Shown piece by piece: positions 11,154 to 60,692 of a stretch of 64,000 nucleotides of DNA. The position numbers were made by a program, and so were the translations under genes. The stretch comes from Candidatus Microgenomates bacterium (GTDB taxonomy: Bacteria; Patescibacteriota; Microgenomatia; Daviesbacterales; UBA10151), in assembly GCA_016182045.1 (NCBI GenBank), contig JACOYE010000008.1, positions 64,502 to 128,501 on the forward strand, read 5' to 3'. The notes beneath the pieces are model-generated. The model saw nothing but the letters and a program-made list of their open reading frames with translations, made no database searches and was not told the DNA's origin. Positions within the stretch are counted from its first letter, which is position 1, and the number at the start of each line of letters is the position of its first letter.

Positions 11154-13205
11154 CTATATCATACTTCCTGCTTTTGGTTTTGTCCAGGAGGCAAACTTGC
11201 AACCTGGCCAGTTTTTACAGCCGTAAAAAGTTTTCCCCCGTCTGGTATGTCTGATAATAATATCTCCACCATCGTCCGGACACTTTGCATCAATTTTTTC
11301 CTCCAAAGCCTCGGTATGCCTGCATTTGGGAAAGGTGGAGCAGGCCAAAAATTTGCCAAACTTCCCTATTCTTATAACTAACTCATTTCCACACTGAGGA
11401 CACTTTTTACCGGCAAGCTCAGGTACCAGTTTCATTTTTTCCGCCTCTTTAAATGTTAGTTCCAATTTTTTCTCAAAAGGCTGATAAAATTGTCTAATAG
11501 TTGGCTGCCACTCCCTTTCTCCTTTGGCTATCTCATCAAGATCATCTTCCATTTTGGCAGTAAATGAATAATCAACAATATCCGGAAAATATTCCACTAT
11601 AAAATCATTAACAGTAAAGCCTAATTCTGTTGGGACAAATTTTCTCTCTATTCTTTCCACATAATATCTTTCTTGAATAGTGGAAATAATTGGTGCATAA
11701 GTAGAGGGTCTGCCAATCCCTAATTCTTCTAACTTTTTGATAAGTGATGCTTCATTGTAACGGGGCGGCGGTTCAGTAAAATGCTGATTGGGCAAAAGTT
11801 GAATCAGGTTGAGAGGTTCATTTTCTGAGACTTTTGGTAATAATTTTTGCCCTGTATCTTTCTCTTCATCTTCCAACTTTTCTTTACCATAAAGTTTTAA
11901 CCAACCTTCAGATTTAATCACTGATCCAGTAGCTCTTAAAAGATAAGCATCAGCTGAAACATCAACGGTGGTTTGGTCTAAAATGGCCTCAGCCATCTGA
12001 CATGCCACAAACCTTTTCCAAATCAGATCATAAAGTCTAGCATGATCTTTATTCATACTTGATATTTGTCTGATGGCTTGAGACTGACGTCTGACATCTG
12101 TCACTCTGATCGCCTCATGTGCCTCCTGGACATTTTTAGATTTTGATTTATAGATTCTAGGCTTTAGGGGAAGATATGATTTACCCAAAAAATCTGCAAT
12201 ATATTTGCGGACAGAAGATATGGCTGAGGCAGAAATATTAACCGAATCGGTTCGCATATAACTTATCAGTCCATGTTCATAAAGGTTTTGAGCTATCATC
12301 ATGGTTTTTTTGGCTGAAAATCCCAGTTTATTGGAAGCAGCTTGTTGCAAAGTGGAAGTAATAAAAGGAGGGTAAGGGTAACGTCTGACTTCCTTTTGTG
12401 TAACTTTGGAAACCAAATACTCAGCCTTTTCCAAGTTTTCAACATGTTCGTCTGCCTCTTCTTTGTTCTTTATCTCCAGTTTCTTACTGTTTTGCTCAAT
12501 TAACATGGCGATGAAACTGTTACCTGTACCTCCTCGAGTCTGAGCGACCGATTCGGTCTGAGACTCACGGTCGAAGACCTCGGAGTCGAAGACCTGTACC
12601 CTATCACCTGTTAACTCTGCTTCTATACTCCAATACTCCACCGGTCTAAAGATTTTTATTTCCCGTTCTCTTTCCACAATTAATCTGAGTGCCACTGACT
12701 GAACCCGTCCGGCAGACAAACCTTTCTTAATTTTTTGCCAAAGTAAAGGAGATAATTTATAACCCACTAATCTATCCAGAATTCTTCTGGCAACCTGTGC
12801 ATCTACTAGTTTGAGATTTATTCCTCTAGGATTCTTAAATGCTTCTTTTATTGCTTCTTCAGTTATTTCATGAAAGACAACCCTATTGACGGAATTTCGA
12901 ATTTGCGAACTCTTTAGGAGTTCGCTTATGTGCCAGGCTATTGCCTCACCTTCCCGATCCGGATCTGTGGCCAGCCACAAAGTGTCAGCGCTTTCTGCCA
13001 CCTTTTTCAACTCATTGACAACCTTTCTCTTATCTCGTGGTATCACGTACTGAGGTTCAAAATTATGTTCCACATCCACTCCAAATTCAGACTTTGGCAG
13101 ATCTCTCACATGACCCATTGAGGCCTCAATTTGATATTTGTCACCTAAAAACTTCTGCAGAGTGCGAGCCTTTGTTGGTGATTCCACTATTACCAGATTA
13201 TTCAT
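11154..13205 (-). CDS. topA: DNA topoisomerase I
   Basis: 683 aa; TOPRIM N-terminus (VIVESPTKARTL), catalytic core, C-terminal Zn-ribbon repeats (CPQCG…, CPDDGG…). Confidence 0.95.
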   Translation of the reverse strand: MNNLVIVESPTKARTLQKFLGDKYQIEASMGHVRDLPKSEFGVDVEHNFEPQYVIPRDKRKVVNELKKVAESADTLWLATDPDREGEAIAWHISELLKSSQIRNSVNRVVFHEITEEAIKEAFKNPRGINLKLVDAQVARRILDRLVGYKLSPLLWQKIKKGLSAGRVQSVALRLIVEREREIKIFRPVEYWSIEAELTGDRVQVFDSEVFDRESQTESVAQTRGGTGNSFIAMLIEQNSKKLEIKNKEEADEHVENLEKAEYLVSKVTQKEVRRYPYPPFITSTLQQAASNKLGFSAKKTMMIAQNLYEHGLISYMRTDSVNISASAISSVRKYIADFLGKSYLPLKPRIYKSKSKNVQEAHEAIRVTDVRRQSQAIRQISSMNKDHARLYDLIWKRFVACQMAEAILDQTTVDVSADAYLLRATGSVIKSEGWLKLYGKEKLEDEEKDTGQKLLPKVSENEPLNLIQLLPNQHFTEPPPRYNEASLIKKLEELGIGRPSTYAPIISTIQERYYVERIERKFVPTELGFTVNDFIVEYFPDIVDYSFTAKMEDDLDEIAKGEREWQPTIRQFYQPFEKKLELTFKEAEKMKLVPELAGKKCPQCGNELVIRIGKFGKFLACSTFPKCRHTEALEEKIDAKCPDDGGDIIIRHTRRGKTFYGCKNWPGCKFASWTKPKAGSMI
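12531..12591. repeat. GC-rich in-frame insert inside topA (coding …FDSEVFDRESQTESVAQTRGG…) flanked by 9-bp direct repeat ACCTGTACC
   Basis: sharp local GC rise; contains CTGAGCGACCGA and GGAGTCGAAG, both also present in the rplK-rplA spacer. Confidence 0.45.
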
Positions 13206-13288
13206 TGTTACTATTGTTACATTGTTACATTGTTAAAAACAATTCAACAATTTAGCAATGAAACAATTTTACTGGTGTTGTCAAGATC
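13206..13288 (-). promoter_or_regulatory. topA leader/promoter region with ATTGTTAC x4 and inverted AACAAT/AATTGTT repeats; TTGACA on minus strand at 13276-13271
   Basis: read directly from sequence. Confidence 0.35.
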
Positions 13289-13543
13289 TTACTCAAAATC
13301 ACTATCCAAAACTTGAGGATTAACTTTCTCCAACTCTGCCTCCAAATCAGTAGCGGAATCAAACTGAAAAGTTTTGGGGGCGTTGGGGGTGGGGATGGGT
13401 GTTGGAGCTTTAGAAACAGTAGCAGATGATTGACTGGCAGGGCTAACTAAATTAGCTTTCCACCCCAGGGGTGCAAACCTAAATAATAAAAATCCCAAAA
13501 CTATAAAAACTATAATAATTATAGTTATTATTTTTTTATTCAT
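13289..13543 (-). CDS. hypothetical membrane-anchored small protein
   Basis: 84 aa; N-terminal TM helix, Pro/Thr-rich linker. Confidence 0.35.
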   Translation of the reverse strand: MNKKIITIIIIVFIVLGFLLFRFAPLGWKANLVSPASQSSATVSKAPTPIPTPNAPKTFQFDSATDLEAELEKVNPQVLDSDFE

Positions 13544-13561
13544 AATTCATAATTCTTAATT

Positions 13562-13924
13562 CTATATTGCCTTTCCCACCTCATTTTTAGCCCTTAATAC
13601 TTTCCCCTTTAAAGTAATCAGACTGGATTTAAGACTACCAACAGAGGAAAATTTTTGGGCCCGATGAAAGGCAATTGCCTCGGCAGCATAAGTTATCCAA
13701 TAATCAGCAGTTTCTATGGGTGTATCCACATTCCCAAAAGCCACTCTGGTTTCCAAAATCCCTTTTCTATTTCTTACCTCCTCCATAATAGCCGCCATTC
13801 TTACCACATCTTCCTCAAACCTGTCACAAACTTTTTGATTAACACCATCAAGGCTAGTAAAGGCAGACGCTTTAATAGGATATAAAAACAAAACAATAAT
13901 TAGAATAAAAATCCACTTTCTCAT
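13562..13924 (-). CDS. hypothetical secreted protein
   Basis: 120 aa; signal peptide (…YPIKASA|F). Confidence 0.4.
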   Translation of the reverse strand: MRKWIFILIIVLFLYPIKASAFTSLDGVNQKVCDRFEEDVVRMAAIMEEVRNRKGILETRVAFGNVDTPIETADYWITYAAEAIAFHRAQKFSSVGSLKSSLITLKGKVLRAKNEVGKAI

Positions 13925-16742: not shown

Positions 16743-17828
16743 CTATCTACTACAGTAATTGCCCCCACCCATACTTATAATCACTCCGGCGATCTCCATC
16801 TTAAGCAAGATGGCCGAGATTTTGGCAGAAGAGAAATTTAACATTCTGCCAATTTCATCAATATGTCTGGTTTCATTTTTTAATGCTTCCAGTACTTTCT
16901 TCTCTTCTTCAGATAACTCCTCCTCAGTTTGAACTCTGAACTTTGCACTTTGAACTTGATTTATCCCCAACTCATCAAGGACTTCTGTGGGCTCAAAAAC
17001 CGCTCTTGCTCCTTCTTTGATTAAATCTATTGGGCCTTTAGATAGGCTGGAAGTAACTGGGCCTGGGACAGCAAAGACATCACGGCCTTGCTCTAAAGCT
17101 AGTCTGGCGGTGATTAAGGAACCGGAATCCTCTGCTGCCTCGGTTACCAATACTGCTAAAGATAATCCGGAAATAATCCTATTTCTTGAGGGAAAATTTC
17201 CCGGCATTGATGGGTAATCTGGAGGAAATTCAGAAATAAGGGCACCCTGACTACTGATTATTCTTTCTGCCAATTGACTGTTTTCCGGAGGAAAAATTTT
17301 ATTTAATCCTCCACCTAAAACAGCAATTGTTCGCCCCCCTTCCTCAAGGGCTTTCTGGTGAGACTTTGTATCAACTCCTCTGGCCAAACCTGAAACAATG
17401 GTTAACCCTGCGCCAATAAGCTCTTTAACAAACTGCTCAGTGACAACCTTACCATATCCGGTCATTTTTCTTGTTCCCACCACTGCTATGGCTTTTTCAT
17501 CCTCAGGCAAAACTTCACCTTTATAATATAGAACAATCGGTGGATCATAGATTTGTTTTAAAAGCTTCGGATACTCTTCATCATAAATGGTCATCCATTT
17601 GATACCCGATCTTTGGATCAATCCTGCATAACTTTCTGGCTCCAGTTTCTTACGAGTTTCCACTAAAAGTTCTGTGGTGTTTTTTGGGATACCAATTTCC
17701 AAAAGCTCTCTCGGGTTTACCTCCCAAGCCAATTTTGGATCTTTAAAATAATCTATGATGGCTTTAAGTCTAATCGGCCCCAAACCATCTATGGAATGTA
17801 GCGCTAAAAGATAAGAAATATTATTCAT
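16743..17828 (-). CDS. dprA: DNA processing protein DprA
   Basis: 361 aa; Rossmann-like DprA core, C-terminal wH domain. Confidence 0.85.
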   Translation of the reverse strand: MNNISYLLALHSIDGLGPIRLKAIIDYFKDPKLAWEVNPRELLEIGIPKNTTELLVETRKKLEPESYAGLIQRSGIKWMTIYDEEYPKLLKQIYDPPIVLYYKGEVLPEDEKAIAVVGTRKMTGYGKVVTEQFVKELIGAGLTIVSGLARGVDTKSHQKALEEGGRTIAVLGGGLNKIFPPENSQLAERIISSQGALISEFPPDYPSMPGNFPSRNRIISGLSLAVLVTEAAEDSGSLITARLALEQGRDVFAVPGPVTSSLSKGPIDLIKEGARAVFEPTEVLDELGINQVQSAKFRVQTEEELSEEEKKVLEALKNETRHIDEIGRMLNFSSAKISAILLKMEIAGVIISMGGGNYCSR

Positions 17829-28077: not shown

Positions 28078-28080
28078 GGA

Positions 28081-28109
28081 TACATTTTTACGACGGCCGT
28101 CAAATAATG
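28081..28109. repeat. 29-bp direct repeat TACATTTTTACGACGGCCGTCAAATAATG (left copy)
   Basis: identical copy at 28617-28645; the two copies exactly bracket the PaaX-like gene. Confidence 0.7.
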
Positions 28110-28110
28110 A

Positions 28111-28614
28111 CTAGCGTCCGACATTATCTGATTCTAAAACAATTACCCAATCCTCTATTCCCACACTTTTTATAAATTCCCTTAAAACTTTTGTACAGTT
28201 TTTCTTAGTTGCCCAAACACTTTGTTGCCAATGAATAAAACCCCACTTCTTGAGGCTATCCCTCAATAAATTTCTTGCCTGTCTTCTTTTCTCAGGAACA
28301 TCAAATATGACTAGTCTCCACTTTCCATCCCACTTCTCATCTGACAGCTTAATACTTTCCCAAATAGCCTTTTGTCTTCCGTGATCTGTCAGCCGATATG
28401 CCAATTTTTCATCGCTGACAAAATCAATCATTCCTCTTTCCCTTAATCTTTTAACAGCCTGAGCAAGTGAGGCTTTTTTTAATGGTCTATCCCAACCAGC
28501 ACCCCATGCATAGGAGTATGAATGGTGGATTAAATCATCATATCTTACATATCCATCTATAGATTTTTCTAATGTAAGAAGAATAAACTTGGCGATACTA
28601 TTTTTTGTCCCCAT
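28111..28614 (-). CDS. PaaX-family-like transcriptional regulator (short form), paralog 2
   Basis: 167 aa; same architecture as 18742-19245 (…WDGKWRLVIFDVPEKRRQARNLLRDSLKKWGF…QQSVWA…). Confidence 0.6.
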   Translation of the reverse strand: MGTKNSIAKFILLTLEKSIDGYVRYDDLIHHSYSYAWGAGWDRPLKKASLAQAVKRLRERGMIDFVSDEKLAYRLTDHGRQKAIWESIKLSDEKWDGKWRLVIFDVPEKRRQARNLLRDSLKKWGFIHWQQSVWATKKNCTKVLREFIKSVGIEDWVIVLESDNVGR

Positions 28615-28616
28615 AA

Positions 28617-28645
28617 TACATTTTTACGACGGCCGTCAAATAATG
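28617..28645. repeat. 29-bp direct repeat (right copy)
   Basis: exact match to 28081-28109. Confidence 0.7.
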
Positions 28646-28693: not shown

Positions 28694-30733
28694 ATGCTTG
28701 ATAAGACTATTACATATTCCTTTTATCTCTTATTTTTCCTAACTCCTCTTTTTTGGACTTCCTTAAATTACGAACTGTTTGAGTATAATAAGATGTTTCT
28801 TACTTATGGATTAACTGTAATCATTGTCGGGGCATGGATTCTAAAAACGATAAACGATAAACGATTAACTTTTAAGCGCACTCCCTTGGATATTCCTCTT
28901 CTACTTTTTTTGGGAGCTAACATTTTTTCCACCATTCTTTCTATTGATACTCACATATCAATTTGGGGCTATTACTCAAGACAAAACGGCGGTCTTTTAT
29001 CTTTGATTGCTTATCTTCTACTCTACTGGGCATTTGTTTCAAATATGGATCTTAAAAAATCTTTGAATCTTTTAAAAGCAGCTTTCTTATCTGGTTTTAT
29101 TATTTCTCTATATGGCATTTTGGAACACTTCGGGGTGTCTCCTTCTTGTGTAATTCTAAGAGGTGAGTTTAATGCCTCATGTTGGGTGCAAGATGTCCAG
29201 GCCAGAGTGTTTGCTACCTTGGGCCAACCAAACTGGATGGCTGCCTATTTGGCCATGCTTATTTTTCCTGCCCTTTATTTCCTCCTCACATCCAAAAGCC
29301 GCATACTACATACTACATACTACATACTACTGATTATTATGTACCTGGCTTTTACCTTCACCTATTCCAGAGGACCAACATTAGGATTAATTGGTGGATT
29401 AGTGGTTTTTATTGGCCTTTATTTTATTCAGAATACTCGGAAAACTCAGAAAGACAGCGAATCAGTGTATCAGAGAATCCGATTATCTGAATTTCTGATT
29501 TCTCAGATATTCCGAGTCCTTCTGAGTTTTCTGGCAATTAACCTCCTTTTTGGGTCTGCCTTAACCAACTTCAGGTTAGTTTCCAAATTTGCCGCACCTG
29601 CCAGACCCGCTATCGCCCTTCCCGCCACAAACACTACTCAGCTTGAAACAGGAGGAACAGAATCCGGCCAGATCCGTTTTATAGTCTGGCAAGGAGCTCT
29701 AGAGATTTTCAAACACTACCCATTATTTGGTTCAGGAGTAGAAACCTTTGCCTATTCTTATTACCAATTCAGACCTGCCGAACACAATCTTACCTCAGAA
29801 TGGGACTTTCTCTATAACAAAGCGCATAACGAATACCTTAATTATTTGGCAACAACCGGAATCTTAGGTCTTAGCGCTTATAGTATAATCATTATAACTT
29901 TTATAATCTTTATACTAAAAAAGTTCAAAAAAGGGAATCTGCTGATTTTAAGCCTCCTTGCTAGCTACATTAGCTATCTAATCTACAACTTCTTCCTCTT
30001 TTCAGTAGTCACGATCGCCATCTTTTTCTATCTTTTCCCAGCCATTGCTTTCGTGGCCATAGACTCCACAAAGCCACTGAAATTTTCTCGACTTCTCACT
30101 TCTCACTTCTCACTTCTCACTTCCTACCTCTATCGTCGTACCTTCTATACCAAAATCGCCAAAGCTTTAGTCATTCTTTCTACCATCTACCTTCTATTTT
30201 CCATCTTCCAGCTCTGGTATGCCGATACCCGTTTTGCCAAGGGACAGAGAGCCTCGGAATTAGGCAATCCAGGACGAGCTTATAATTTACTGACCGAGGC
30301 TTTACAATTAAATGGTAATGAACCATTTTACAGAAGCGAACTTTCCTTTGCTGCAGCAGCTTCGGCTATAGCTCTTGAGGATTCCGAGGCCACCCTATCC
30401 GCAGCCCTAAAAGATGAGGCAATCAGAGAAATAGAGCTGGTCCTTAAAAATAGTCCCCAAAATGTCTCTTTTTGGCGGACAGCCATCAGAACCTATTTTG
30501 AGTTATCAGGCTTGGATAAAAATTACACTGATAAAACTCTTCAGGCTTTAGATCAGACAATCAAGCTGGCCCCAACTGATCCAAAACTATACTACAACAA
30601 GGCTTTAATACTCCAAACAATCAACAAAACTCAAGAAGCCATTAAGTCTTTGGAGAAAGCAATTGAGCTAAAACCGAACTATCAGGAAGCCATCCAGCAG
30701 CTTGAGGAAGCAACTTCATCAGCAAAACCATGA
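28694..30733 (+). CDS. O-antigen ligase/polymerase (Wzy)-like polytopic membrane protein with C-terminal TPR repeats
   Basis: 679 aa; ~12 TM helices with a large periplasmic loop, C-terminal TPR-like helices; contains three internal repeat/IR segments. Confidence 0.65.
   Translation: MLDKTITYSFYLLFFLTPLFWTSLNYELFEYNKMFLTYGLTVIIVGAWILKTINDKRLTFKRTPLDIPLLLFLGANIFSTILSIDTHISIWGYYSRQNGGLLSLIAYLLLYWAFVSNMDLKKSLNLLKAAFLSGFIISLYGILEHFGVSPSCVILRGEFNASCWVQDVQARVFATLGQPNWMAAYLAMLIFPALYFLLTSKSRILHTTYYILLIIMYLAFTFTYSRGPTLGLIGGLVVFIGLYFIQNTRKTQKDSESVYQRIRLSEFLISQIFRVLLSFLAINLLFGSALTNFRLVSKFAAPARPAIALPATNTTQLETGGTESGQIRFIVWQGALEIFKHYPLFGSGVETFAYSYYQFRPAEHNLTSEWDFLYNKAHNEYLNYLATTGILGLSAYSIIIITFIIFILKKFKKGNLLILSLLASYISYLIYNFFLFSVVTIAIFFYLFPAIAFVAIDSTKPLKFSRLLTSHFSLLTSYLYRRTFYTKIAKALVILSTIYLLFSIFQLWYADTRFAKGQRASELGNPGRAYNLLTEALQLNGNEPFYRSELSFAAAASAIALEDSEATLSAALKDEAIREIELVLKNSPQNVSFWRTAIRTYFELSGLDKNYTDKTLQALDQTIKLAPTDPKLYYNKALILQTINKTQEAIKSLEKAIELKPNYQEAIQQLEEATSSAKP
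29303..29330. repeat. (ATACTAC)x4 perfect heptanucleotide tandem repeat inside the Wzy-like CDS
   Basis: read directly; unit length is not a multiple of 3. Confidence 0.85.
29437..29534. repeat. ~100-bp imperfect inverted-repeat (MITE-like) element inside the Wzy-like CDS
   Basis: termini CGGAAAACTCAGAAAG / CCTTCTGAGTTTTCTGG (14/16 complementary), internal TCAGA/TCTGA palindromes; encodes the hydrophilic stretch …NTRKTQKDSESVYQRIRLSEF…. Confidence 0.4.
30084..30127. repeat. (TTCTCAC)n heptanucleotide tandem repeat (4 perfect + degenerate units) inside the Wzy-like CDS
   Basis: read directly; the same repeat occurs inside fmt at 31863-31897. Confidence 0.85.
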
Positions 30734-30993
30734 AAAAGCTTGGTAGAATCATTGCCGAATCCAGATTTAAGAATAGGCCTAAAAATATCGCCTATGAATT
30801 CCAGCAATATGGAGTATACCTTGCAGAATCATTAAATGATACCAAACATTATTCTTTATACATCAAACTGGCCAAAGAAGTGGATAGAAAAATTTTGGAA
30901 GAAGCGCTAAATTTTACAAAGGAGTATTATGGTGCCAAATCCAAAGCTAAAGTATTTATGTGGAGATTGACGCAATTAAGGAAAACTGGCTAA
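30730..30993 (+). CDS. hypothetical protein
   Basis: 87 aa ORF overlapping the Wzy-like stop and the def 5' region; no recognisable family. Confidence 0.3.
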   Translation: MKKLGRIIAESRFKNRPKNIAYEFQQYGVYLAESLNDTKHYSLYIKLAKEVDRKILEEALNFTKEYYGAKSKAKVFMWRLTQLRKTG

Positions 30994-31013
30994 ATTTCTG
31001 TTACAATTCCCTC

Positions 31014-31580
31014 ATGCTTCAAGTAATTAAAGCGCCTGATTCAAGGCTGCGGGTCAAGACAACGGCTGTCAAAAAGATTACTCCTGCTTTAATTAATACC
31101 CTGAAAGAGATGATTAAACTGACCAAAACTTTTAAAGAGCCAGAAGGGGTAGGTTTGGCCTCCACTCAGATAGGTTTGGATGAGAGCTTTTTTGTGGCTC
31201 GCCTCGATGAGTCGGCCCGCCTAGACGCGAGGCTGGCGAAGCGGGCCAAAGATGGTCAAAGATTTATGATGGTGATTAATCCCAAAGTTATATCTATGGG
31301 CAAGCGCAGCAAAAAATACTTTGAAGGTTGTCTGTCCACCCCCAATATTTGGGGTGAGGTCAAAAGAGCTACCCAACTTAAGGTTTCTTATCAGGATGAA
31401 AATGGAAAGATGATCACTAAATCCTTAAAAGGTGTACCTGCCTGGATATTTCAACATGAGATTGACCATCTAAATGGCATTCTTTTCCAGGATAGAGTTT
31501 TGGAGCAAAAGGGTAAGTTTTATAAGTTTACTGGTAAAGATAAAACCGGCACAGATATGTTTGAGGAGGTGACAATTTGA
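31014..31580 (+). CDS. def: peptide deformylase
   Basis: GVGLASTQIG, EGCLS, HEIDHLNG motifs; start placed at MLQVIKAPD (ORF track extends to 30960); carries a GC-rich in-frame insert. Confidence 0.85.
   Translation: MLQVIKAPDSRLRVKTTAVKKITPALINTLKEMIKLTKTFKEPEGVGLASTQIGLDESFFVARLDESARLDARLAKRAKDGQRFMMVINPKVISMGKRSKKYFEGCLSTPNIWGEVKRATQLKVSYQDENGKMITKSLKGVPAWIFQHEIDHLNGILFQDRVLEQKGKFYKFTGKDKTGTDMFEEVTI
31196..31250. repeat. GC-rich palindromic in-frame insert in def (GGCCCGC…GCGGGCC; coding …ARLDESARLDARLAKRA…)
   Basis: read directly; local GC far above the AT-rich surroundings; lies between the conserved Def blocks. Confidence 0.45.
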
Positions 31581-32521
31581 GTATAATTTCCAAACTCAAT
31601 ATGAAAACATTACAACAACCACAAGTTTGGCCCAAGCTTTATGAAACTATTCTGATTAAGGAGGAGATTAAAAAATATTTACATAAGATGCCAAGACACA
31701 ACATAGAAATTGTTTTTTGGGGCTCTGATCCATGGTCTGTCTATGTTCTGAAAGCCTTAGAGGATAATTTTGATGTCAAGGCTATAGTTACTGCTTCGGA
31801 TTCATCTGTAGCAAATTATTTTAAAGGTCCAATCCTAACTCCTGAAAAGCTAGACCATGACTTTCTCACTTCTCACTTCTCATTTCTCACTTCTGATCTA
31901 TTTATAGTTGCCTCCTATGGCAAAATAATTCCACAATCCATCTTAAACATTCCAAAATTCGCAAGTTTAAATGTCCATCCATCACTACTCCCCAAATACA
32001 GAGGTTCATCTCCGGTACCGGCCACCATTCTTATGGGAGACAAAATTACAGGAGTAACCATTATTAAGATGGATGCTAAAGTGGATCATGGGCCGATTGT
32101 TTCTACAAAAGAAATTAGCTTAACAGGACAGGAAAATTCCCTATTTTTGATCAATAAATTATTTCAACTCGGAGCAGATCTGTTAGTAAAAATAATACCG
32201 GATTATATGACAGGCAAAATAAAATTAATGCCCCAAAATCACCTAAAAGCCACATATTGTGAAAGGCTAACCAGAAACAGTGGTTATTTTAAAATTGATA
32301 ATCCTCCATCACCTGAGAAACTGGATAGAATGATCCGGGCATATTATCCCTGGCCGGGAGTTTGGACCCGCTTTCGCCCTTCGGGCTCCAGCGGGCAAGC
32401 CAAAATAGTAAAATTCCTACCAGGTGGGCTACTTCAAATGGAGGGTAAAAAAGCTATATCTTACCAAGACTTCCTCAACGGCTACCCAGATTTTCCGATC
32501 AAAGAGCTTCTCAAAGTATGA
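31577..32521 (+). CDS. fmt: methionyl-tRNA formyltransferase
   Basis: formyltransferase N-domain (NVHPSLLPKYRG) and C-domain; a later start at MPRHNIEIVFWG (31688) is possible; 4-bp overlap with def. Confidence 0.85.
   Translation: MSIISKLNMKTLQQPQVWPKLYETILIKEEIKKYLHKMPRHNIEIVFWGSDPWSVYVLKALEDNFDVKAIVTASDSSVANYFKGPILTPEKLDHDFLTSHFSFLTSDLFIVASYGKIIPQSILNIPKFASLNVHPSLLPKYRGSSPVPATILMGDKITGVTIIKMDAKVDHGPIVSTKEISLTGQENSLFLINKLFQLGADLLVKIIPDYMTGKIKLMPQNHLKATYCERLTRNSGYFKIDNPPSPEKLDRMIRAYYPWPGVWTRFRPSGSSGQAKIVKFLPGGLLQMEGKKAISYQDFLNGYPDFPIKELLKV
31863..31897. repeat. (TTCTCAC)n heptanucleotide tandem repeat inside fmt
   Basis: read directly; encodes …LTSHFSFLTS…, as the Wzy-like copy encodes …LTSHFSLLTS…. 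Confidence 0.85.
32351..32400. repeat. GC-rich palindromic in-frame insert in fmt (CCCGCTTTCGCCCTTCGGGCTCCAGCGGG; coding …RFRPSGSSGQA…)
   Basis: read directly; TTCGCCCTTCGGGC core resembles the 10431-10512 element. Confidence 0.45.
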
Positions 32522-58581: not shown

Positions 58582-59275
58582 GAATCAGAACAACTCAGAA
58601 AACTCAGATAAATCAGAAGATCAGATTGTCACTGAGTCAGAAAGCCAGAACGAGCAAGTATCTGACACTCTGGTTTCCTCTGATACCTCTGATTCTTCTG
58701 GCACACCGAGTCCTTCTGAGTCTTCCGAAAAACCAACCAAACCTGACAATCCCAATGCCAAATGGTATGTAGTCCATACCTATTCCGGGCATGAAAATAA
58801 AGTGGCAGCCACCTTAAAGCAAAGAATTGAATCGGAACATTTGGAAAATAAAATTTTTGAAGTATTAGTACCCATGCAGGATAAAATTGAGATCAAATCC
58901 GGTAAAAAGATGACTGTCAAGGAAAAAATCTTTCCCGGTTATATTCTGGTAAAAATGCTCCTGGATGATCAATCCTGGCTGGCGGTCAGAACTACCCAGG
59001 GAGTGACTGCCTTTGTGGGCATGGGTAATAAACCCACTCCTATTTCCGATCAGGAAGTGCAAACCATAGTTAAGTTTACTCAAGAGGAAGCCCCAACTTT
59101 CAAACAAGTGTTTGCTACCGATGATACTGTTAAAATAATAGACGGTCCGTTTGCCGAGTTTATCGGAAAAGTGGATTCTGTAGATCAGGAAAAAGGAAAG
59201 GTCAGGGTTCTGGTCTCCATATTTGGTCGCGAGACACCAGTGGAATTAGATTTTTTGCAAGTGCAGAAAATATAA
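58571..59275 (+). CDS. nusG: transcription termination/antitermination factor NusG (with ~60-aa acidic Ser/Asp-rich N-terminal extension)
   Basis: NGN domain (KWYVVHTYSGHENKV) and KOW domain (…GKVDSVDQEKGKVRVLVSIFGR…). Confidence 0.9.
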   Translation: MDDKNQNNSENSDKSEDQIVTESESQNEQVSDTLVSSDTSDSSGTPSPSESSEKPTKPDNPNAKWYVVHTYSGHENKVAATLKQRIESEHLENKIFEVLVPMQDKIEIKSGKKMTVKEKIFPGYILVKMLLDDQSWLAVRTTQGVTAFVGMGNKPTPISDQEVQTIVKFTQEEAPTFKQVFATDDTVKIIDGPFAEFIGKVDSVDQEKGKVRVLVSIFGRETPVELDFLQVQKI

Positions 59276-59822: not shown

Positions 59823-60692
59823 ATGGGTAAAACTAAAATTAAGGTTATTGATGCATCTCAGCCTGAGGTTGAGAAAAAGAAAGCCTCTAAAAAGGCAGAA
59901 AAACAGACGATAGAAGATAGAAAATCGAAGGTAGTGGTAGAAGATAGAGAATCGAAGATAGAAGAAAAAGAAAAAGTCCATCCTCAGCCTTCTACTATCA
60001 AAAAACCATCTTCTACCATCCATCATCCATCGTCAAAAAAAGTTAGATCCAAGAAATACCAGCAAGTTATAAAAGACCTGGACAGGACTAAATCCTATAC
60101 CCTCCCCGAGGCAGTTGACATGGTCAAAAAATTAAGCTACGCTAAATTTAATGCCACCTTAGAGGCTCATATAAACACCGCGCAAACGGGTCTACGTGGT
60201 CTGGTCTCCCTGCCCTATGCATCCGGGAAGAAATTACGCATCTTAGCCTTCGGTAAAGGCGCTGAACAATCGGGCGCAGATTTAGTTGGGACTGATGAGA
60301 TAATTGAAAGAATTAGTCAGGGAAAGGTGGATTTTGACTTAATTATAACCACTCCTGAGTGGATGCCCAAGTTGGCCAAAGTGGCCAAAATTTTAGGACC
60401 CAAGGGCTTGATGCCCAATCCCAAAAACGGCACTATCACTCCGCCAGCTGGCGGATCAGCTGACGGATTAAAGAAGGCAATTGAAGGATTTCAGGCCGGA
60501 AAAACCGAGTACAAAACCGAGTCTAAAGCTCCTGTTGTCCACCTTGCCCTGGGAAAATTAAGCCAGCCCACTGATGAACTTTCTCAAAATATCCAGACTC
60601 TTCTTCAAACTATTGGCAAAACCAGAATTAAAAAAGTCTCCCTTGCCCCCACCATGGGCCCATCTGTTAAGCTTGATCTTACAACCATCTAA
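59823..60692 (+). CDS. rplA: 50S ribosomal protein L1 (with ~55-aa Lys/Glu-rich N-terminal extension containing a short tandem repeat)
   Basis: 289 aa; L1 core from …KKYQQVIKDLDRTKSYTLPEAV…; repeat GAAGATAGARAATCGAAG x2 at 59921-59975. Confidence 0.9.
   Translation: MGKTKIKVIDASQPEVEKKKASKKAEKQTIEDRKSKVVVEDRESKIEEKEKVHPQPSTIKKPSSTIHHPSSKKVRSKKYQQVIKDLDRTKSYTLPEAVDMVKKLSYAKFNATLEAHINTAQTGLRGLVSLPYASGKKLRILAFGKGAEQSGADLVGTDEIIERISQGKVDFDLIITTPEWMPKLAKVAKILGPKGLMPNPKNGTITPPAGGSADGLKKAIEGFQAGKTEYKTESKAPVVHLALGKLSQPTDELSQNIQTLLQTIGKTRIKKVSLAPTMGPSVKLDLTTI

What the first reader, a model, noticed from the sequence alone, without database searches (positions are those of the whole stretch)
29303..31897. 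Heptanucleotide microsatellites inside the Wzy-like gene and fmt: candidate slipped-strand switches
(ATACTAC)x4 at 29303-29330 and (TTCTCAC)x4-6 at 30084-30127 lie inside the O-antigen-ligase/polymerase-like gene. A near-identical (TTCTCAC)x5 tract lies inside fmt at 31863-31897. Both TTCTCAC tracts encode LTSHFS(L/F)LTS. A 7-nt unit is not a multiple of three, so gain or loss of one unit frameshifts the gene. That is the classic mechanism of phase-variable surface-polysaccharide genes in Neisseria, Haemophilus and Helicobacter. Finding the same heptamer tract in two unrelated genes 1.7 kb apart also suggests the tract is itself mobile or copied by recombination.
Basis: partly seen in the sequence, partly recalled or inferred. 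Interest (0 to 1): 0.6.

Follow-up and report, generated by a model that had tools for sequence, protein, structure and literature searches.

The report
In-frame heptanucleotide microsatellites in CPR genes
The 7-base repeats are real, but they belong to a lineage-wide population of short, frame-preserving heptanucleotide microsatellites in Microgenomates (CPR) genes, housekeeping genes included, and look like slippage-generated, purifying-selection-filtered sequence rather than on/off switches or a mobile cassette.

Summary
**Observation: confirmed.**
- The Wzy_C/TPR gene (28694-30733) carries three heptamer arrays, not two: AAACGAT x3.6, CATACTA x4.1 and TTCTCAC x5.4.
- fmt carries TTCTCAC x4.6.
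- Exact period-7 arrays: 3 observed against 0.01 expected.

**Context.** In 160 related Microgenomates/Daviesbacteria loci, period 7 dominates all other periods (212 and 176 arrays; no other period exceeds 21). An E. coli control has none. Arrays recur at the same protein sites with different units. They also occur in topA, dprA, rplA, pyrimidine-synthesis-type enzymes and intergenic DNA.

**Against a phase switch.**
- None of about 265 Wzy arrays or 14-16 fmt arrays breaks the frame.
- Perfect arrays have at most 5.4 units.
- Sites show no N-terminal bias.
- Arrays are identical across independent assemblies of the same species.
- The fmt TTCTCAC tract keeps its copy number in an fmt only 52% identical.

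**For ongoing slippage or homogenisation.**
- Lag-7 identity within a genome exceeds orthologous identity between genomes at two sites.
- Tract DNA is 94-97% identical where the genes are about 67% identical.
- One strain variant differs by exactly 3 units (7 aa).

**Against a mobile tract.** The flanks are ancestral to each gene family. Unit sharing within a genome is barely above chance (4 observed, 1.4 expected).

**Verdict.** This is a new coding variant of the known bacterial heptanucleotide-SSR excess. Read-level heterogeneity remains untested.

The parts
28694..30733 (+). Wzy_C (O-antigen-ligase family) membrane protein with a C-terminal TPR domain, 679 aa. It hosts three heptamer arrays, all in the membrane domain.
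   Evidence: ORF; Pfam Wzy_C E 4.9e-19 and TPR_1 E 1.1e-8; more than 5,700 homologues, the nearest 70-72% identical and from Daviesbacteria/Microgenomates.
28845..28869 (+). (AAACGAT) x3.6, encoding KTINDKRLT (aa 51-59). This is a basic loop just after TM 34-54. It is a 'fossil' array; the unit contains TAA in one phase, so it cannot extend as a perfect array.
   Evidence: TRF; exact 3.0 copies; orthologues carry KTINDKRLTIKR or KIINHKSLIFNR with 73-92% periodic DNA; lag-7 identity 0.45 against between-genome identity 0.57; an added unit creates a stop.
29302..29330 (+). (CATACTA) x4.1, perfect, encoding RILHTTYYILL (aa 203-213) inside predicted TM 204-223. This is a dynamic array site.
   Evidence: The orthologous site carries ACTACTT, ACATTTT, ACTTGTT, ACGCTAT, ACTTATT and other arrays. 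Within-genome lag-7 identity 0.58 exceeds between-genome identity 0.47. 32/33 nt identical to L009, whose gene is 67.7% identical. KD hydropathy.
30085..30123 (+). (TTCTCAC) x5.4 (exact run 30091-30123), encoding FSRLLTSHFSLLTS (aa 464-477), between TM 425-460 and TM 486-511. This is a dynamic array site.
   Evidence: The orthologous site carries CTATACC, CATACTA, CATTCTA, CTATACG, TTCCAyC and other arrays, or is about 7 aa shorter. Lag-7 identity 0.445 exceeds between-genome identity 0.36. 31/33 nt identical to L010.
31577..32521 (+). Methionyl-tRNA formyltransferase (fmt), downstream of def (30960-31580).
   Evidence: Pfam Formyl_trans_N E 2.7e-27; best PDB matches 4iqf and 1fmt; AlphaFold2 model with mean pLDDT 94.7.
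31863..31894 (+). (TTCTCAC) x4.6 with one mismatch, encoding FLTSHFSFLTS (aa 96-106). It forms a well-folded alpha-helix of the Rossmann domain immediately before strand DLFIV. It is not an insertion.
   Evidence: TRF; helix H58-68 of the model, pLDDT 96-98; gap-free alignment to the helix of solved Fmt proteins and of E. coli Fmt; the same unit at x4.4 at the same site in L177, whose fmt is 52% identical, with 29/32 nt identical.
16928..16957 (.). (TTTGAAC) x4.3 inside dprA (16743-17828, minus strand). It shows that the arrays are not confined to envelope genes.
   Evidence: TRF; Pfam DNA_processg_A E 2.6e-81.
59905..60031 (+). (AGAAGAT) x8.9 and (CCATCAT) x3.7, partly complementary, in the N-terminal extension of ribosomal protein L1 (59823-60692).
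   Evidence: TRF; inverted repeat 59935-59964 / 59989-60018; Pfam Ribosomal_L1.
13538..13562 (.). (ATTCATA) x3.6 in non-coding DNA, an example of an intergenic heptamer array.
   Evidence: TRF; sequence.
12134..12160 (.). Degenerate (TTTTAGA) x3.9 inside topoisomerase I (11154-13205, minus strand).
   Evidence: TRF; Pfam Topoisom_bac E 1.3e-134.

Best explanation
The tracts are short (3-5 unit) heptanucleotide microsatellites embedded in frame in coding DNA. They are four members of a lineage-wide population of such arrays in Microgenomates (Daviesbacteria and relatives). Proposed mechanism: replication slippage or intra-array conversion, which in this lineage (as noted for many bacteria) strongly favours 7-nt units, creates and keeps homogenising arrays everywhere in the genome. 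Purifying selection then removes every state that breaks the frame or yields an intolerable peptide. Survivors therefore sit in permissive segments: TM helices, membrane-proximal loops, surface helices, N-terminal extensions and intergenic DNA. They stay short and change length only in steps of 3 units (21 nt, 7 aa, about two helical turns). Each unit position is read as codon position 1, 2 and 3 in successive copies, so a change that has spread through the whole array nearly always alters at least one amino acid. This explains why tract DNA is far better conserved than ordinary synonymous sites. A slip of 1 or 2 units would give a null allele, but such alleles behave as rare deleterious mutants, not as a programmed switch. 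SHOWN: the period-7 excess; recurrence at homologous sites with different units; frame always kept; the concerted-evolution signature; one 3-unit polymorphism; stability between strains; helix context in fmt. INFERRED: slippage as the generator; the cause of the 7-nt bias; the selection filter; the cause of sense-strand G depletion.
For: (1) Period-7 excess. There are 212 arrays of at least 3 copies in 80 genome loci, against at most 10 for any other period, and 176 against at most 21 in 80 independent metagenome loci. E. coli K-12 has 0 in 50 kb that includes its rfb and wca clusters. The window has 3 exact arrays against 0.01 expected. (2) The arrays are not specific to surface genes. They occur in topA, dprA, rplA, fmt, a DHO-dehydrogenase-type enzyme, an amidohydrolase, a radical-SAM enzyme and an M50 protease. 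Non-ORF DNA carries 0.29 per kb, so the 7-nt bias does not depend on translation. (3) The frame is always preserved. Wzy is intact in 80 of 81 loci; the exception, L076, has a deletion of about 100 nt, not a unit slip. All 80 Wzy genes in the second set are in a single frame. fmt is intact in 64 of 64. Wzy is also intact in 13 places that were selected through fmt, independently of Wzy's state. (4) Arrays are short: median 4.3 units, and 82 perfect arrays with a maximum of 5.4. (5) Homogenisation. At sites 203-217 and 466-478, within-genome lag-7 identity (0.58, 0.445) exceeds between-genome in-register identity (0.47, 0.36), and control segments show no lag-7 peak. Units at one site differ between genomes by single substitutions present in all copies. 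Tract DNA is 32/33 and 31/33 identical between genes about 67% identical, and codon identity at conserved residues is 10/11 and 9/10 against 49% and 46% gene-wide. (6) In-frame 3-unit steps. P0270 lacks exactly IINRKSL relative to otherwise identical strain proteins, and 7-aa gaps occur at tract sites in fmt and Wzy orthologues. (7) Permissive context. The fmt tract is helix H58-68 with pLDDT above 95. All Wzy arrays lie in the membrane domain (aa 1-506) and none in the TPR domain. (8) Precedent. Heptanucleotides are the most abundant long-SSR class in many bacteria, with a polymerase-contact slippage hypothesis (Mrazek 2007, as summarised in PMC4679880 and PMC4692102).
Against: Array density in the Wzy-like gene (0.82 per kb) exceeds even non-ORF DNA (0.29 per kb) and is 9 times that of other ORFs. 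A pure 'mutation plus tolerance' model needs an extra assumption here, either a pyrimidine-rich G-poor substrate effect or positive retention. Sense-strand G is 6.8% in arrays against 20.6% in the background, and stop-codon avoidance does not explain this (it predicts 21%). My explanation, that NGN codons (Arg, Cys, Trp, Gly) are costly when every base is read in all phases, is untested. Homogenising 4-5-unit arrays seems to require passage through frameshifted intermediates or rare multi-unit steps, and neither was observed directly. Why 7 nt is favoured is unknown. Contigs from several assemblies end at arrays (L083, L085, L179, L184), which could reflect hidden length heterogeneity. The genome and metagenome loci were ranked by their Wzy match, which may under-sample broken genes; the fmt-selected contigs only partly correct for this.
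Confidence: 0.6

Rival explanations
1. Adaptive contingency loci. The arrays are maintained because gain or loss of one unit reversibly switches the Wzy-like glycan polymerase/ligase, and perhaps fmt, ON and OFF in a subpopulation. This would diversify the cell surface against phage or host pressure.
For: The unit is not a multiple of 3, so a change of 1 or 2 units truncates the protein. Array density in the Wzy-like gene is 2.8 times that of intergenic DNA and 9 times that of other ORFs. Perfect arrays persist across deep divergence, which implies ongoing slippage. In relatives, arrays also abut the Wzy and fmt start codons, where length could tune expression. Contigs break at arrays. Heptanucleotide phase variation is documented in H. 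influenzae (PMC2651432).
Against: No OFF alleles occur at about 265 Wzy arrays in 161 genes or at the fmt arrays, nor in the 13 fmt-selected places. Known phase-variable tracts show OFF frames among strains and carry 6-38 units (PMC2651432). Perfect arrays here have at most 5.4 units. Arrays are identical across up to 8 independent assemblies of one species. There is no N-terminal bias, unlike SSRs tuned for phase variation (PMC3315296). The same arrays occur in essential housekeeping genes. The fmt tract has a fixed copy number at 52% protein identity.
Confidence: 0.12
2. The TTCTCAC tract is a mobile or recombination-copied cassette, moved between the Wzy-like gene and fmt by gene conversion or a small mobile element.
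For: The same unit occurs in two genes 1.7 kb apart, and the repeat finder extends the similarity to 64 nt at 77% (D4). Identical units at different sites within one genome occur 4 times against 1.41 expected, and 19 against 10.8 when one mismatch is allowed.
Against: The fmt tract replaces a homologous helix without any length change. Its 3' flank encodes DLFVVASYGKIIP, conserved as far as E. coli, and the Wzy 3' flank (YRRxxYTKIAK) is conserved in Wzy orthologues, so the flank similarity is ancestral to each family. TTCTCAC sits at the same fmt site in a deeply diverged Daviesbacteria whose Wzy carries other units. The rate of identical units between different sites (0.38%) matches random draws from the few hundred G-poor, stop-free heptamer classes. 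There are no terminal repeats or target duplications.
Confidence: 0.04
3. Protein-level selection for 7-residue-periodic (heptad-like) helices. On this view the DNA periodicity is a by-product of selection for amphipathic or TM helices with a repeating face.
For: The fmt tract is an alpha-helix. Several Wzy sites lie in predicted helices or TM segments. Distant fmt proteins show a weaker F[IL]xxH[LF]xxLxS pattern at this helix. 'Fossil' sites (51-62, 100-110, 495-506) conserve the peptide better than the DNA period.
Against: The arrays are perfect at the nucleotide level, including codon choice. Non-ORF DNA carries heptamer arrays at 0.29 per kb. Periods of 4 or 11, which suit helices equally well, show no excess. 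Loops and N-terminal extensions also carry arrays.
Confidence: 0.06
4. The arrays are functional nucleic-acid motifs. They could be tandem binding sites for a protein that binds single-stranded nucleic acid or DNA (CSP-like, one protein per heptamer), or elements that pace translation or transcription.
For: Arrays are strongly depleted in G on the sense strand (6.8%) and are pyrimidine-rich. DNA-level conservation exceeds synonymous expectation. In relatives, arrays sit directly upstream of start codons. CspB binds heptamer direct repeats, as reviewed in PMC4679880.
Against: Units differ widely between genomes at the same site and between sites within a genome, so no common recognition sequence exists. 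The conservation is explained without invoking function by the absence of silent sites in a homogenised array.
Confidence: 0.07

Closest known systems
SSR-mediated phase-variable (contingency) genes of Haemophilus and Neisseria, including heptanucleotide tracts (TGAAAGA in hmw1A/2A promoters, AACAACC in a TonB-dependent receptor gene, AATTTTG within hmw1A; PMC2651432)
   Same: Tandem heptanucleotide units inside or next to a gene. The unit is not a multiple of 3, so a change of one unit shifts the frame. One host gene is an envelope-glycan enzyme.
   Different: Those tracts have 6-38 units, differ in length between strains and are found in OFF frames. Here arrays have 3-5.4 units, are never out of frame in about 280 instances, are identical among strains, occur in essential genes too, and show no N-terminal bias.
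Genome-wide excess of heptanucleotide long SSRs in bacteria (Mrazek et al. 2007, as summarised in PMC4679880 and PMC4692102); cyanobacterial heptanucleotide repeats (Calothrix/Nostoc), Xanthomonas GGGAATC, Beggiatoaceae TAACTGA
   Same: A strong, period-7-specific over-representation of short tandem arrays (typically 2-6 copies). Pairs of complementary arrays form hairpins. A polymerase-slippage bias is the proposed origin.
   Different: Those repeats are mainly intergenic and are under-represented or stop-containing in ORFs, and each genome favours one or a few consensus units. Here units are highly diverse, about 83% of arrays lie within ORFs in frame, they recur at homologous protein sites across a class-level lineage, and one membrane-protein gene is the densest host.
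In-frame coding VNTRs (units of 3n nt) in bacterial surface proteins
   Same: Tandem DNA repeats translated into periodic peptides. Length changes that keep the frame are tolerated.
   Different: Here the DNA unit (7 nt) is not the translated period (21 nt, 7 aa). A single-unit change is frame-breaking, and every unit position is read in all three codon phases.
Concerted evolution of tandem arrays (general principle)
   Same: Copies within a genome are more alike than orthologous positions between genomes. Variants spread through the array.
   Different: It operates here on arrays of only 4-5 very short units inside conserved enzymes, under a frame constraint.

Membership tests
SSR-mediated phase-variable (contingency) locus | Tandem repeat within the ORF or promoter whose unit length is not a multiple of 3 (or which alters promoter spacing) | tested here: met
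   7-nt units inside the Wzy-like gene and fmt; a change of 1 or 2 units gives truncated products.
SSR-mediated phase-variable (contingency) locus | Repeat number differs among strains or populations, with both ON and OFF frames observed | tested here: not met
   No OFF frames at about 265 Wzy arrays or at the fmt arrays. Arrays are identical across up to 8 assemblies of one species. Logan contigs from 3 runs are identical to the window. The only length polymorphism found is an in-frame change of 3 units. Read-level data were not available.
SSR-mediated phase-variable (contingency) locus | Tract long enough for high slippage rates (documented heptanucleotide cases have 6-38 units) | tested here: not met
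   The window tracts have 3.6-5.4 units. Across 397 arrays the median is 4.3, and perfect arrays reach at most 5.4. Comparator: PMC2651432.
SSR-mediated phase-variable (contingency) locus | Preferential association with surface, restriction-modification or host-interaction genes, and N-terminal placement | tested here: not met
   Arrays also occur in fmt, topA, dprA, rplA and pyrimidine-synthesis-type enzymes. Sites are spread over aa 51-506. The N-terminal bias criterion comes from PMC3315296. The Wzy-like gene is nevertheless the densest host.
Bacterial heptanucleotide long-SSR class (Mrazek 2007 sense) | Period-7 arrays over-represented relative to other periods and to composition-matched expectation | tested here: met
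Bacterial heptanucleotide long-SSR class (Mrazek 2007 sense) | Predominantly intergenic location, with non-3n units avoided in coding DNA | tested here: not met
   184 of 221 arrays lie within ORFs, which cover 88% of the sequence. Wzy carries 0.82 per kb against 0.29 per kb for non-ORF DNA.
Mobile element or MITE-like cassette | Conserved element with defined ends (TIR or TSD), copied with flanking signature to unrelated sites | tested here: not met
   The flanks are ancestral to each gene family. Unit sharing is 4 observed against 1.4 expected.
O-antigen ligase / Wzy_C family (host gene) | Significant match to PF04932 within a polytopic membrane protein | tested here: met
   E 4.9e-19, 69 bits against a cut-off of 31.7. 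KD analysis gives multiple TM segments. Substrate and activity are not testable here.
Methionyl-tRNA formyltransferase (host gene) | Formyl_trans_N fold with a C-terminal domain; def-fmt synteny; closest solved relatives are Fmt | tested here: met
   Caveat: the loop-1 insertion of E. coli Fmt is absent and the C-domain match is weak.

The most novel reading that the evidence does not exclude
Microgenomates may possess a lineage-specific, highly active 7-nt slippage or templating process. It would continually overwrite helical and loop segments of proteins, essential ones included, with 7-residue-periodic peptides. As a by-product or an exploited feature, it would generate low-frequency reversible knock-outs at scores of loci, with the Wzy-like envelope enzyme as the preferred target. 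This would amount to population-level bet-hedging in an uncultivated, reduced-genome symbiont lineage, invisible in consensus MAGs.
Probability: 0.12. Interest if true: 0.8.

Novelty: new variant of a known kind. Interest (0 to 1): 0.55.

Why it matters
Non-triplet microsatellites are expected to be purged from coding DNA. In practice it warns annotators not to call phase variation from unit length alone. It also explains recurrent contig breaks and odd 7-aa-periodic segments in CPR proteins.

Tried and rejected
- **Strain variants of this locus.** A flank-anchored pattern with a variable gap found nothing in JGI metagenomes.
- **Second metagenome scan.** A scan with the heavily sampled orthologue P0268 returned no near-identical strains, only relatives 36-70% identical. 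I used these as an independent survey instead.
- **Exact look-up of the window's Wzy protein.** Nothing was found. Neighbouring genes gave Logan contigs 100% identical to the window. Some end inside tracts (29329, 30095) but others end elsewhere (28759, 30174, 31218-31243), so this says nothing decisive about length heterogeneity.
- **L076.** It looked like an OFF allele beside tract site 2, but it is a deletion of about 100 nt that removes a TM segment, not a unit slip.
- **Truncated cluster members.** P0242, P0243, P0250, P0253, P0264 and P0269 are explained by contig ends or by divergence in the variable loop, not by frameshifts at tracts.
- **Strain-level indels.** Indels among the fmt-anchored contigs are scaffold N-gaps, one 1-nt deletion in tgt, and divergent contig ends. 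None lies in an array.
- **Wzy structure.** The AlphaFold2 model of the Wzy-like protein was poor (pLDDT 59), so I used it only as indicative secondary structure.
- **Stop-codon avoidance as the cause of G depletion.** Rejected.
- **Literature.** Searches found no description of coding heptanucleotide arrays in CPR.

Full report
**Observation.** The three reported tracts are present.
- (CATACTA) x4.1 lies at 29302-29330 and is exact.
- (TTCTCAC) x5.4 lies at 30085-30123. Its first unit is TTCTCGAC, and the exact run is 30091-30123.
- (TTCTCAC) x4.6 lies at 31863-31894, with one C>T mismatch.

Exact period-7 arrays of at least 3 copies number 3 in the window, against 0.01 expected from third-order Markov simulations, and all three lie in ORF 28694-30733. 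That ORF is a Wzy_C (O-antigen-ligase family) membrane protein with C-terminal TPR repeats. ORF 31577-32521 is fmt, downstream of def.

The statement that both TTCTCAC tracts encode LTSHFS(L/F)LTS is correct but trivial. Three heptamers make seven codons, so every frame of a same-strand heptamer array gives the same cyclic heptapeptide.

**Source and relatives.** Homologue searches place the window in a Candidatus Microgenomates / Daviesbacteria-like (CPR) MAG. The nearest orthologues are 70-77% identical.

Alignments gave the key lead. At the same protein positions, orthologues carry different 7-residue-periodic peptides.
- Wzy site aa 203-218: RILHTTYYILL, LTTYYLLLTTYY, LLVTCYLLLVTCY, SLYILHFTL and others.
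- Wzy site aa 459-480: LLTSHFSLLTS, LYPIPYTLYPI, ILHSTFYILHF, LNTVYQILNT and others, or a segment about 7 aa shorter.
- fmt helix aa 96-107: FLTSHFSFLTS, FLTTNYQLLTT, NFKSQISNFKP, FLASHFASLAS, SYHLSLISYHL and others.

The fmt segment aligns gap-free with the homologous helix of E. coli and B. anthracis Fmt, so it is not an insertion.

**Lineage-wide survey.** I fetched 80 genome loci and ran TRF on them.
- Arrays of at least 3 copies: 212 with period 7, against at most 10 for any other period. At 90% match or better the counts are 75 against at most 3.
- An independent set of 80 metagenome loci, 36-70% identical, gave 176 against at most 21.
- The same procedure on 50 kb of E. coli K-12, including its own O-antigen and colanic-acid clusters, gave no period-7 arrays of at least 3 copies.

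Densities:

| Region | Arrays per kb |
|---|---|
| Wzy-like gene | 0.82 |
| fmt | 0.28 |
| Non-ORF DNA | 0.29 |
| Other ORFs | 0.089 |

About 83% of arrays lie in ORFs, which cover 88% of the sequence.

Arrays also occur in topoisomerase I, DprA, ribosomal protein L1, a DHO-dehydrogenase-type enzyme, an amidohydrolase (dihydroorotase-like), a radical-SAM enzyme and an M50 protease.

Across 397 arrays the median is 4.3 units, the 90th percentile is 5.3, and the 82 perfect arrays never exceed 5.4.

In the Wzy-like gene the arrays cluster at about six recurrent sites: aa 51-62, 100-110, 203-218, 405-422, 459-480 and 495-506. All are in the membrane domain and none in the TPR domain.

**Is it a switch?**
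- *Consequences of a slip.* A change of 1 or 2 units would truncate Wzy to 55-57, 210-267 or 489-532 aa and fmt to 101-114 aa. A change of 3 units is in frame.
- *Frame across relatives.* The Wzy gene is one intact ORF in 80 of 81 loci of the first set. The exception, L076, has a deletion of about 100 nt that removes a TM segment, not a unit slip. The gene is in a single frame in all 80 loci of the second set. fmt is intact in 64 of 64.
- *Ascertainment.* Those loci were ranked by their Wzy match, so I also retrieved contigs through exact fmt proteins. All 13 places shown, summarising about 48 contigs of two species, have a full-length Wzy gene. In one species all seven heptamer arrays with 15-nt flanks are identical in every contig that spans them, across up to 8 independent assemblies.
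- *Fixed copy number in fmt.* That species' fmt is only 52% identical to the window's, yet it carries (TTCTCAC) x4.4 at the same site, 29 of 32 nt identical.
- *Comparison with documented cases.* Heptanucleotide phase-variable tracts in H. influenzae have 6-38 units and are found in OFF frames among strains (PMC2651432). SSRs tuned for phase variation are biased to N-termini (PMC3315296).

None of these features holds here, so I do not file the tracts as contingency loci. Minority OFF subpopulations cannot be excluded without reads.

**Are the arrays nevertheless dynamic?** Yes.
- *Concerted evolution.* I applied an ascertainment-free test to aligned codon columns of all loci. At sites 203-217 and 466-478, within-genome lag-7 identity is 0.58 and 0.445, while between-genome in-register identity is 0.47 and 0.36. 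That is the signature of concerted evolution.
- *Fossil sites.* Sites 51-62, 100-110 and 495-506 behave as conserved 'fossil' arrays. Control segments show no lag-7 peak.
- *Unit variants.* Units at one site differ between genomes by single substitutions present in every copy: ACTACAT, ACTACTT, ACTACCT, ATTACTT, GTTACTT.
- *DNA conservation.* Tract DNA is 32/33 and 31/33 identical between genes about 67% identical. Codon identity at conserved residues is 10/11 and 9/10, against 49% and 46% gene-wide. I explain this by arithmetic. In a homogenised heptamer array each unit position is read as codon position 1, 2 and 3 in successive copies, so an array-wide change nearly always alters an amino acid. 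This step is inference.
- *A 3-unit polymorphism.* One strain-level variant (P0270) lacks exactly IINRKSL (7 aa, 3 units) at site 51-62 and is otherwise identical. Gaps of 7 aa occur at tract sites in other orthologues.
- *Contig ends.* Contigs from several assemblies end at arrays (L083, L085, L179, L184). This is compatible with graph branching, but it is not decisive because other contig ends lie elsewhere.

**Is the tract mobile?** No support.
- The fmt 3' flank (DLFVVASYGKIIP) is conserved as far as E. coli, and the Wzy 3' flank is conserved among Wzy orthologues. The 64-nt similarity found by the repeat finder (D4) is therefore tract plus ancestral flanks.
- Identical units at different sites within a genome occur 4 times against 1.41 expected, and 19 against 10.8 when one mismatch is allowed. 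The between-site match rate (0.38%) fits random draws from a few hundred G-poor, stop-free heptamer classes.

**Structural context.** The fmt model (mean pLDDT 94.7) puts the tract in helix H58-68, directly before strand DLFIV. The Wzy model was poor (pLDDT 59). Hydropathy places tract 2 inside TM 204-223, tract 1 in the basic loop after TM 34-54, and tract 3 between TM 425-460 and TM 486-511.

**Best explanation (confidence about 0.6).** A 7-nt-biased slippage or homogenisation process generates arrays throughout these genomes. Such a bias is already noted for long SSRs in many bacteria, with a polymerase-contact hypothesis (PMC4679880, PMC4692102). Purifying selection keeps only short, frame-preserving arrays in permissive segments, and length changes become fixed in 3-unit steps.

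**Unexplained.**
- The Wzy-like gene exceeds even non-ORF DNA in array density.
- Sense-strand G is 6.8% in arrays against 20.6% in the background, and stop-codon avoidance does not explain this.
- Why 7 nt is favoured.

These gaps keep the adaptive-switch reading (about 0.12) and a functional-motif reading (about 0.07) alive.

**Novelty.** Heptanucleotide SSR excess and heptanucleotide phase variation are both known. What differs here is that the arrays are coding and in frame, recur at homologous sites, evolve in concert, and are distributed across a class-level CPR lineage including essential genes. I found no description of this in the searchable literature. I rate it a new variant of a known kind, with interest 0.55.

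Noticed in passing
window 28080-28109 and 28616-28645: A perfect 30-nt direct repeat (ATACATTTTTACGACGGCCGTCAAATAATG, containing the palindrome GACGGCCGTC) brackets the PaaX_M/Cas2-like gene 28111-28614 (minus strand), immediately upstream of the Wzy-like gene.
   Followed up: no
window 29437-29531 and 58584-58728: An in-frame imperfect palindrome, built from 9-mer units (TCAGAAAAC and its complement), lies in the variable loop of the Wzy-like protein (aa about 248-280). A related element lies in the N-terminal extension of NusG. The orthologous Wzy loops carry other translated REP-like palindromes (PRKRESI...AFAGMTK) and vary greatly in length.
   Followed up: partly
window about 31205-31250 (within def): A GC-rich insert encodes SARLDARLAKRAKDG inside peptide deformylase. 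Logan contigs from three sequencing runs all break at 31218-31243, which suggests a dispersed repeat or a variable element.
   Followed up: partly
window 31577-32521: This fmt lacks the loop-1 insertion of E. coli Fmt (about residues 34-49, implicated in initiator-tRNA recognition according to my own knowledge). It has only a weak C-terminal-domain match and an ORF extension of about 36 aa upstream of the conserved start. More distant Daviesbacteria fmt proteins retain the loop.
   Followed up: partly
window 59905-60031: The ribosomal protein L1 gene has an N-terminal extension of about 100 aa. It contains (AGAAGAT) x8.9 and a partly complementary (CCATCAT) x3.7, which form a 30-nt imperfect inverted repeat (59935-59964 / 59989-60018).
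   Followed up: partly
window 13203-13268 and 13497-13562: The region at the start of topA holds (CATTGTTA) x4 followed by its complement (AAACAATT) x4, a hairpin made of tandem octamers. Further 9-mer and 7-mer arrays lie in the same intergenic region.
   Followed up: partly
L062 4459-4495; L077 1844-1875; L177 1400-1440; L059 8415-8437; L031 7421-7445: In relatives, perfect heptamer arrays (up to x5.9) lie within about 40 nt upstream of, or overlap, the start codons of the Wzy-like gene and fmt. There a change in length would alter the spacing of the 5' region rather than the reading frame. The one case checked across strains, L177, was invariant.
   Followed up: partly
L038 6477-6545; L005 7651-7720: Pairs of adjacent heptamer arrays are reverse complements of each other (GATTTAT x4.9 / AAATCAT x5.0). 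In L038 the pair lies directly after the Wzy stop codon and in L005 upstream of the fmt start. They form hairpins built from heptamer repeats, possibly terminators in the L038 case.
   Followed up: no
L180 about 7611 (tgt gene): One assembly of a Rifle Daviesbacteria species has a 1-nt deletion that splits the tRNA-guanine transglycosylase gene. All other assemblies of the same species have the gene intact, so this is probably an assembly error or a rare variant. It is not at a repeat array.
   Followed up: partly
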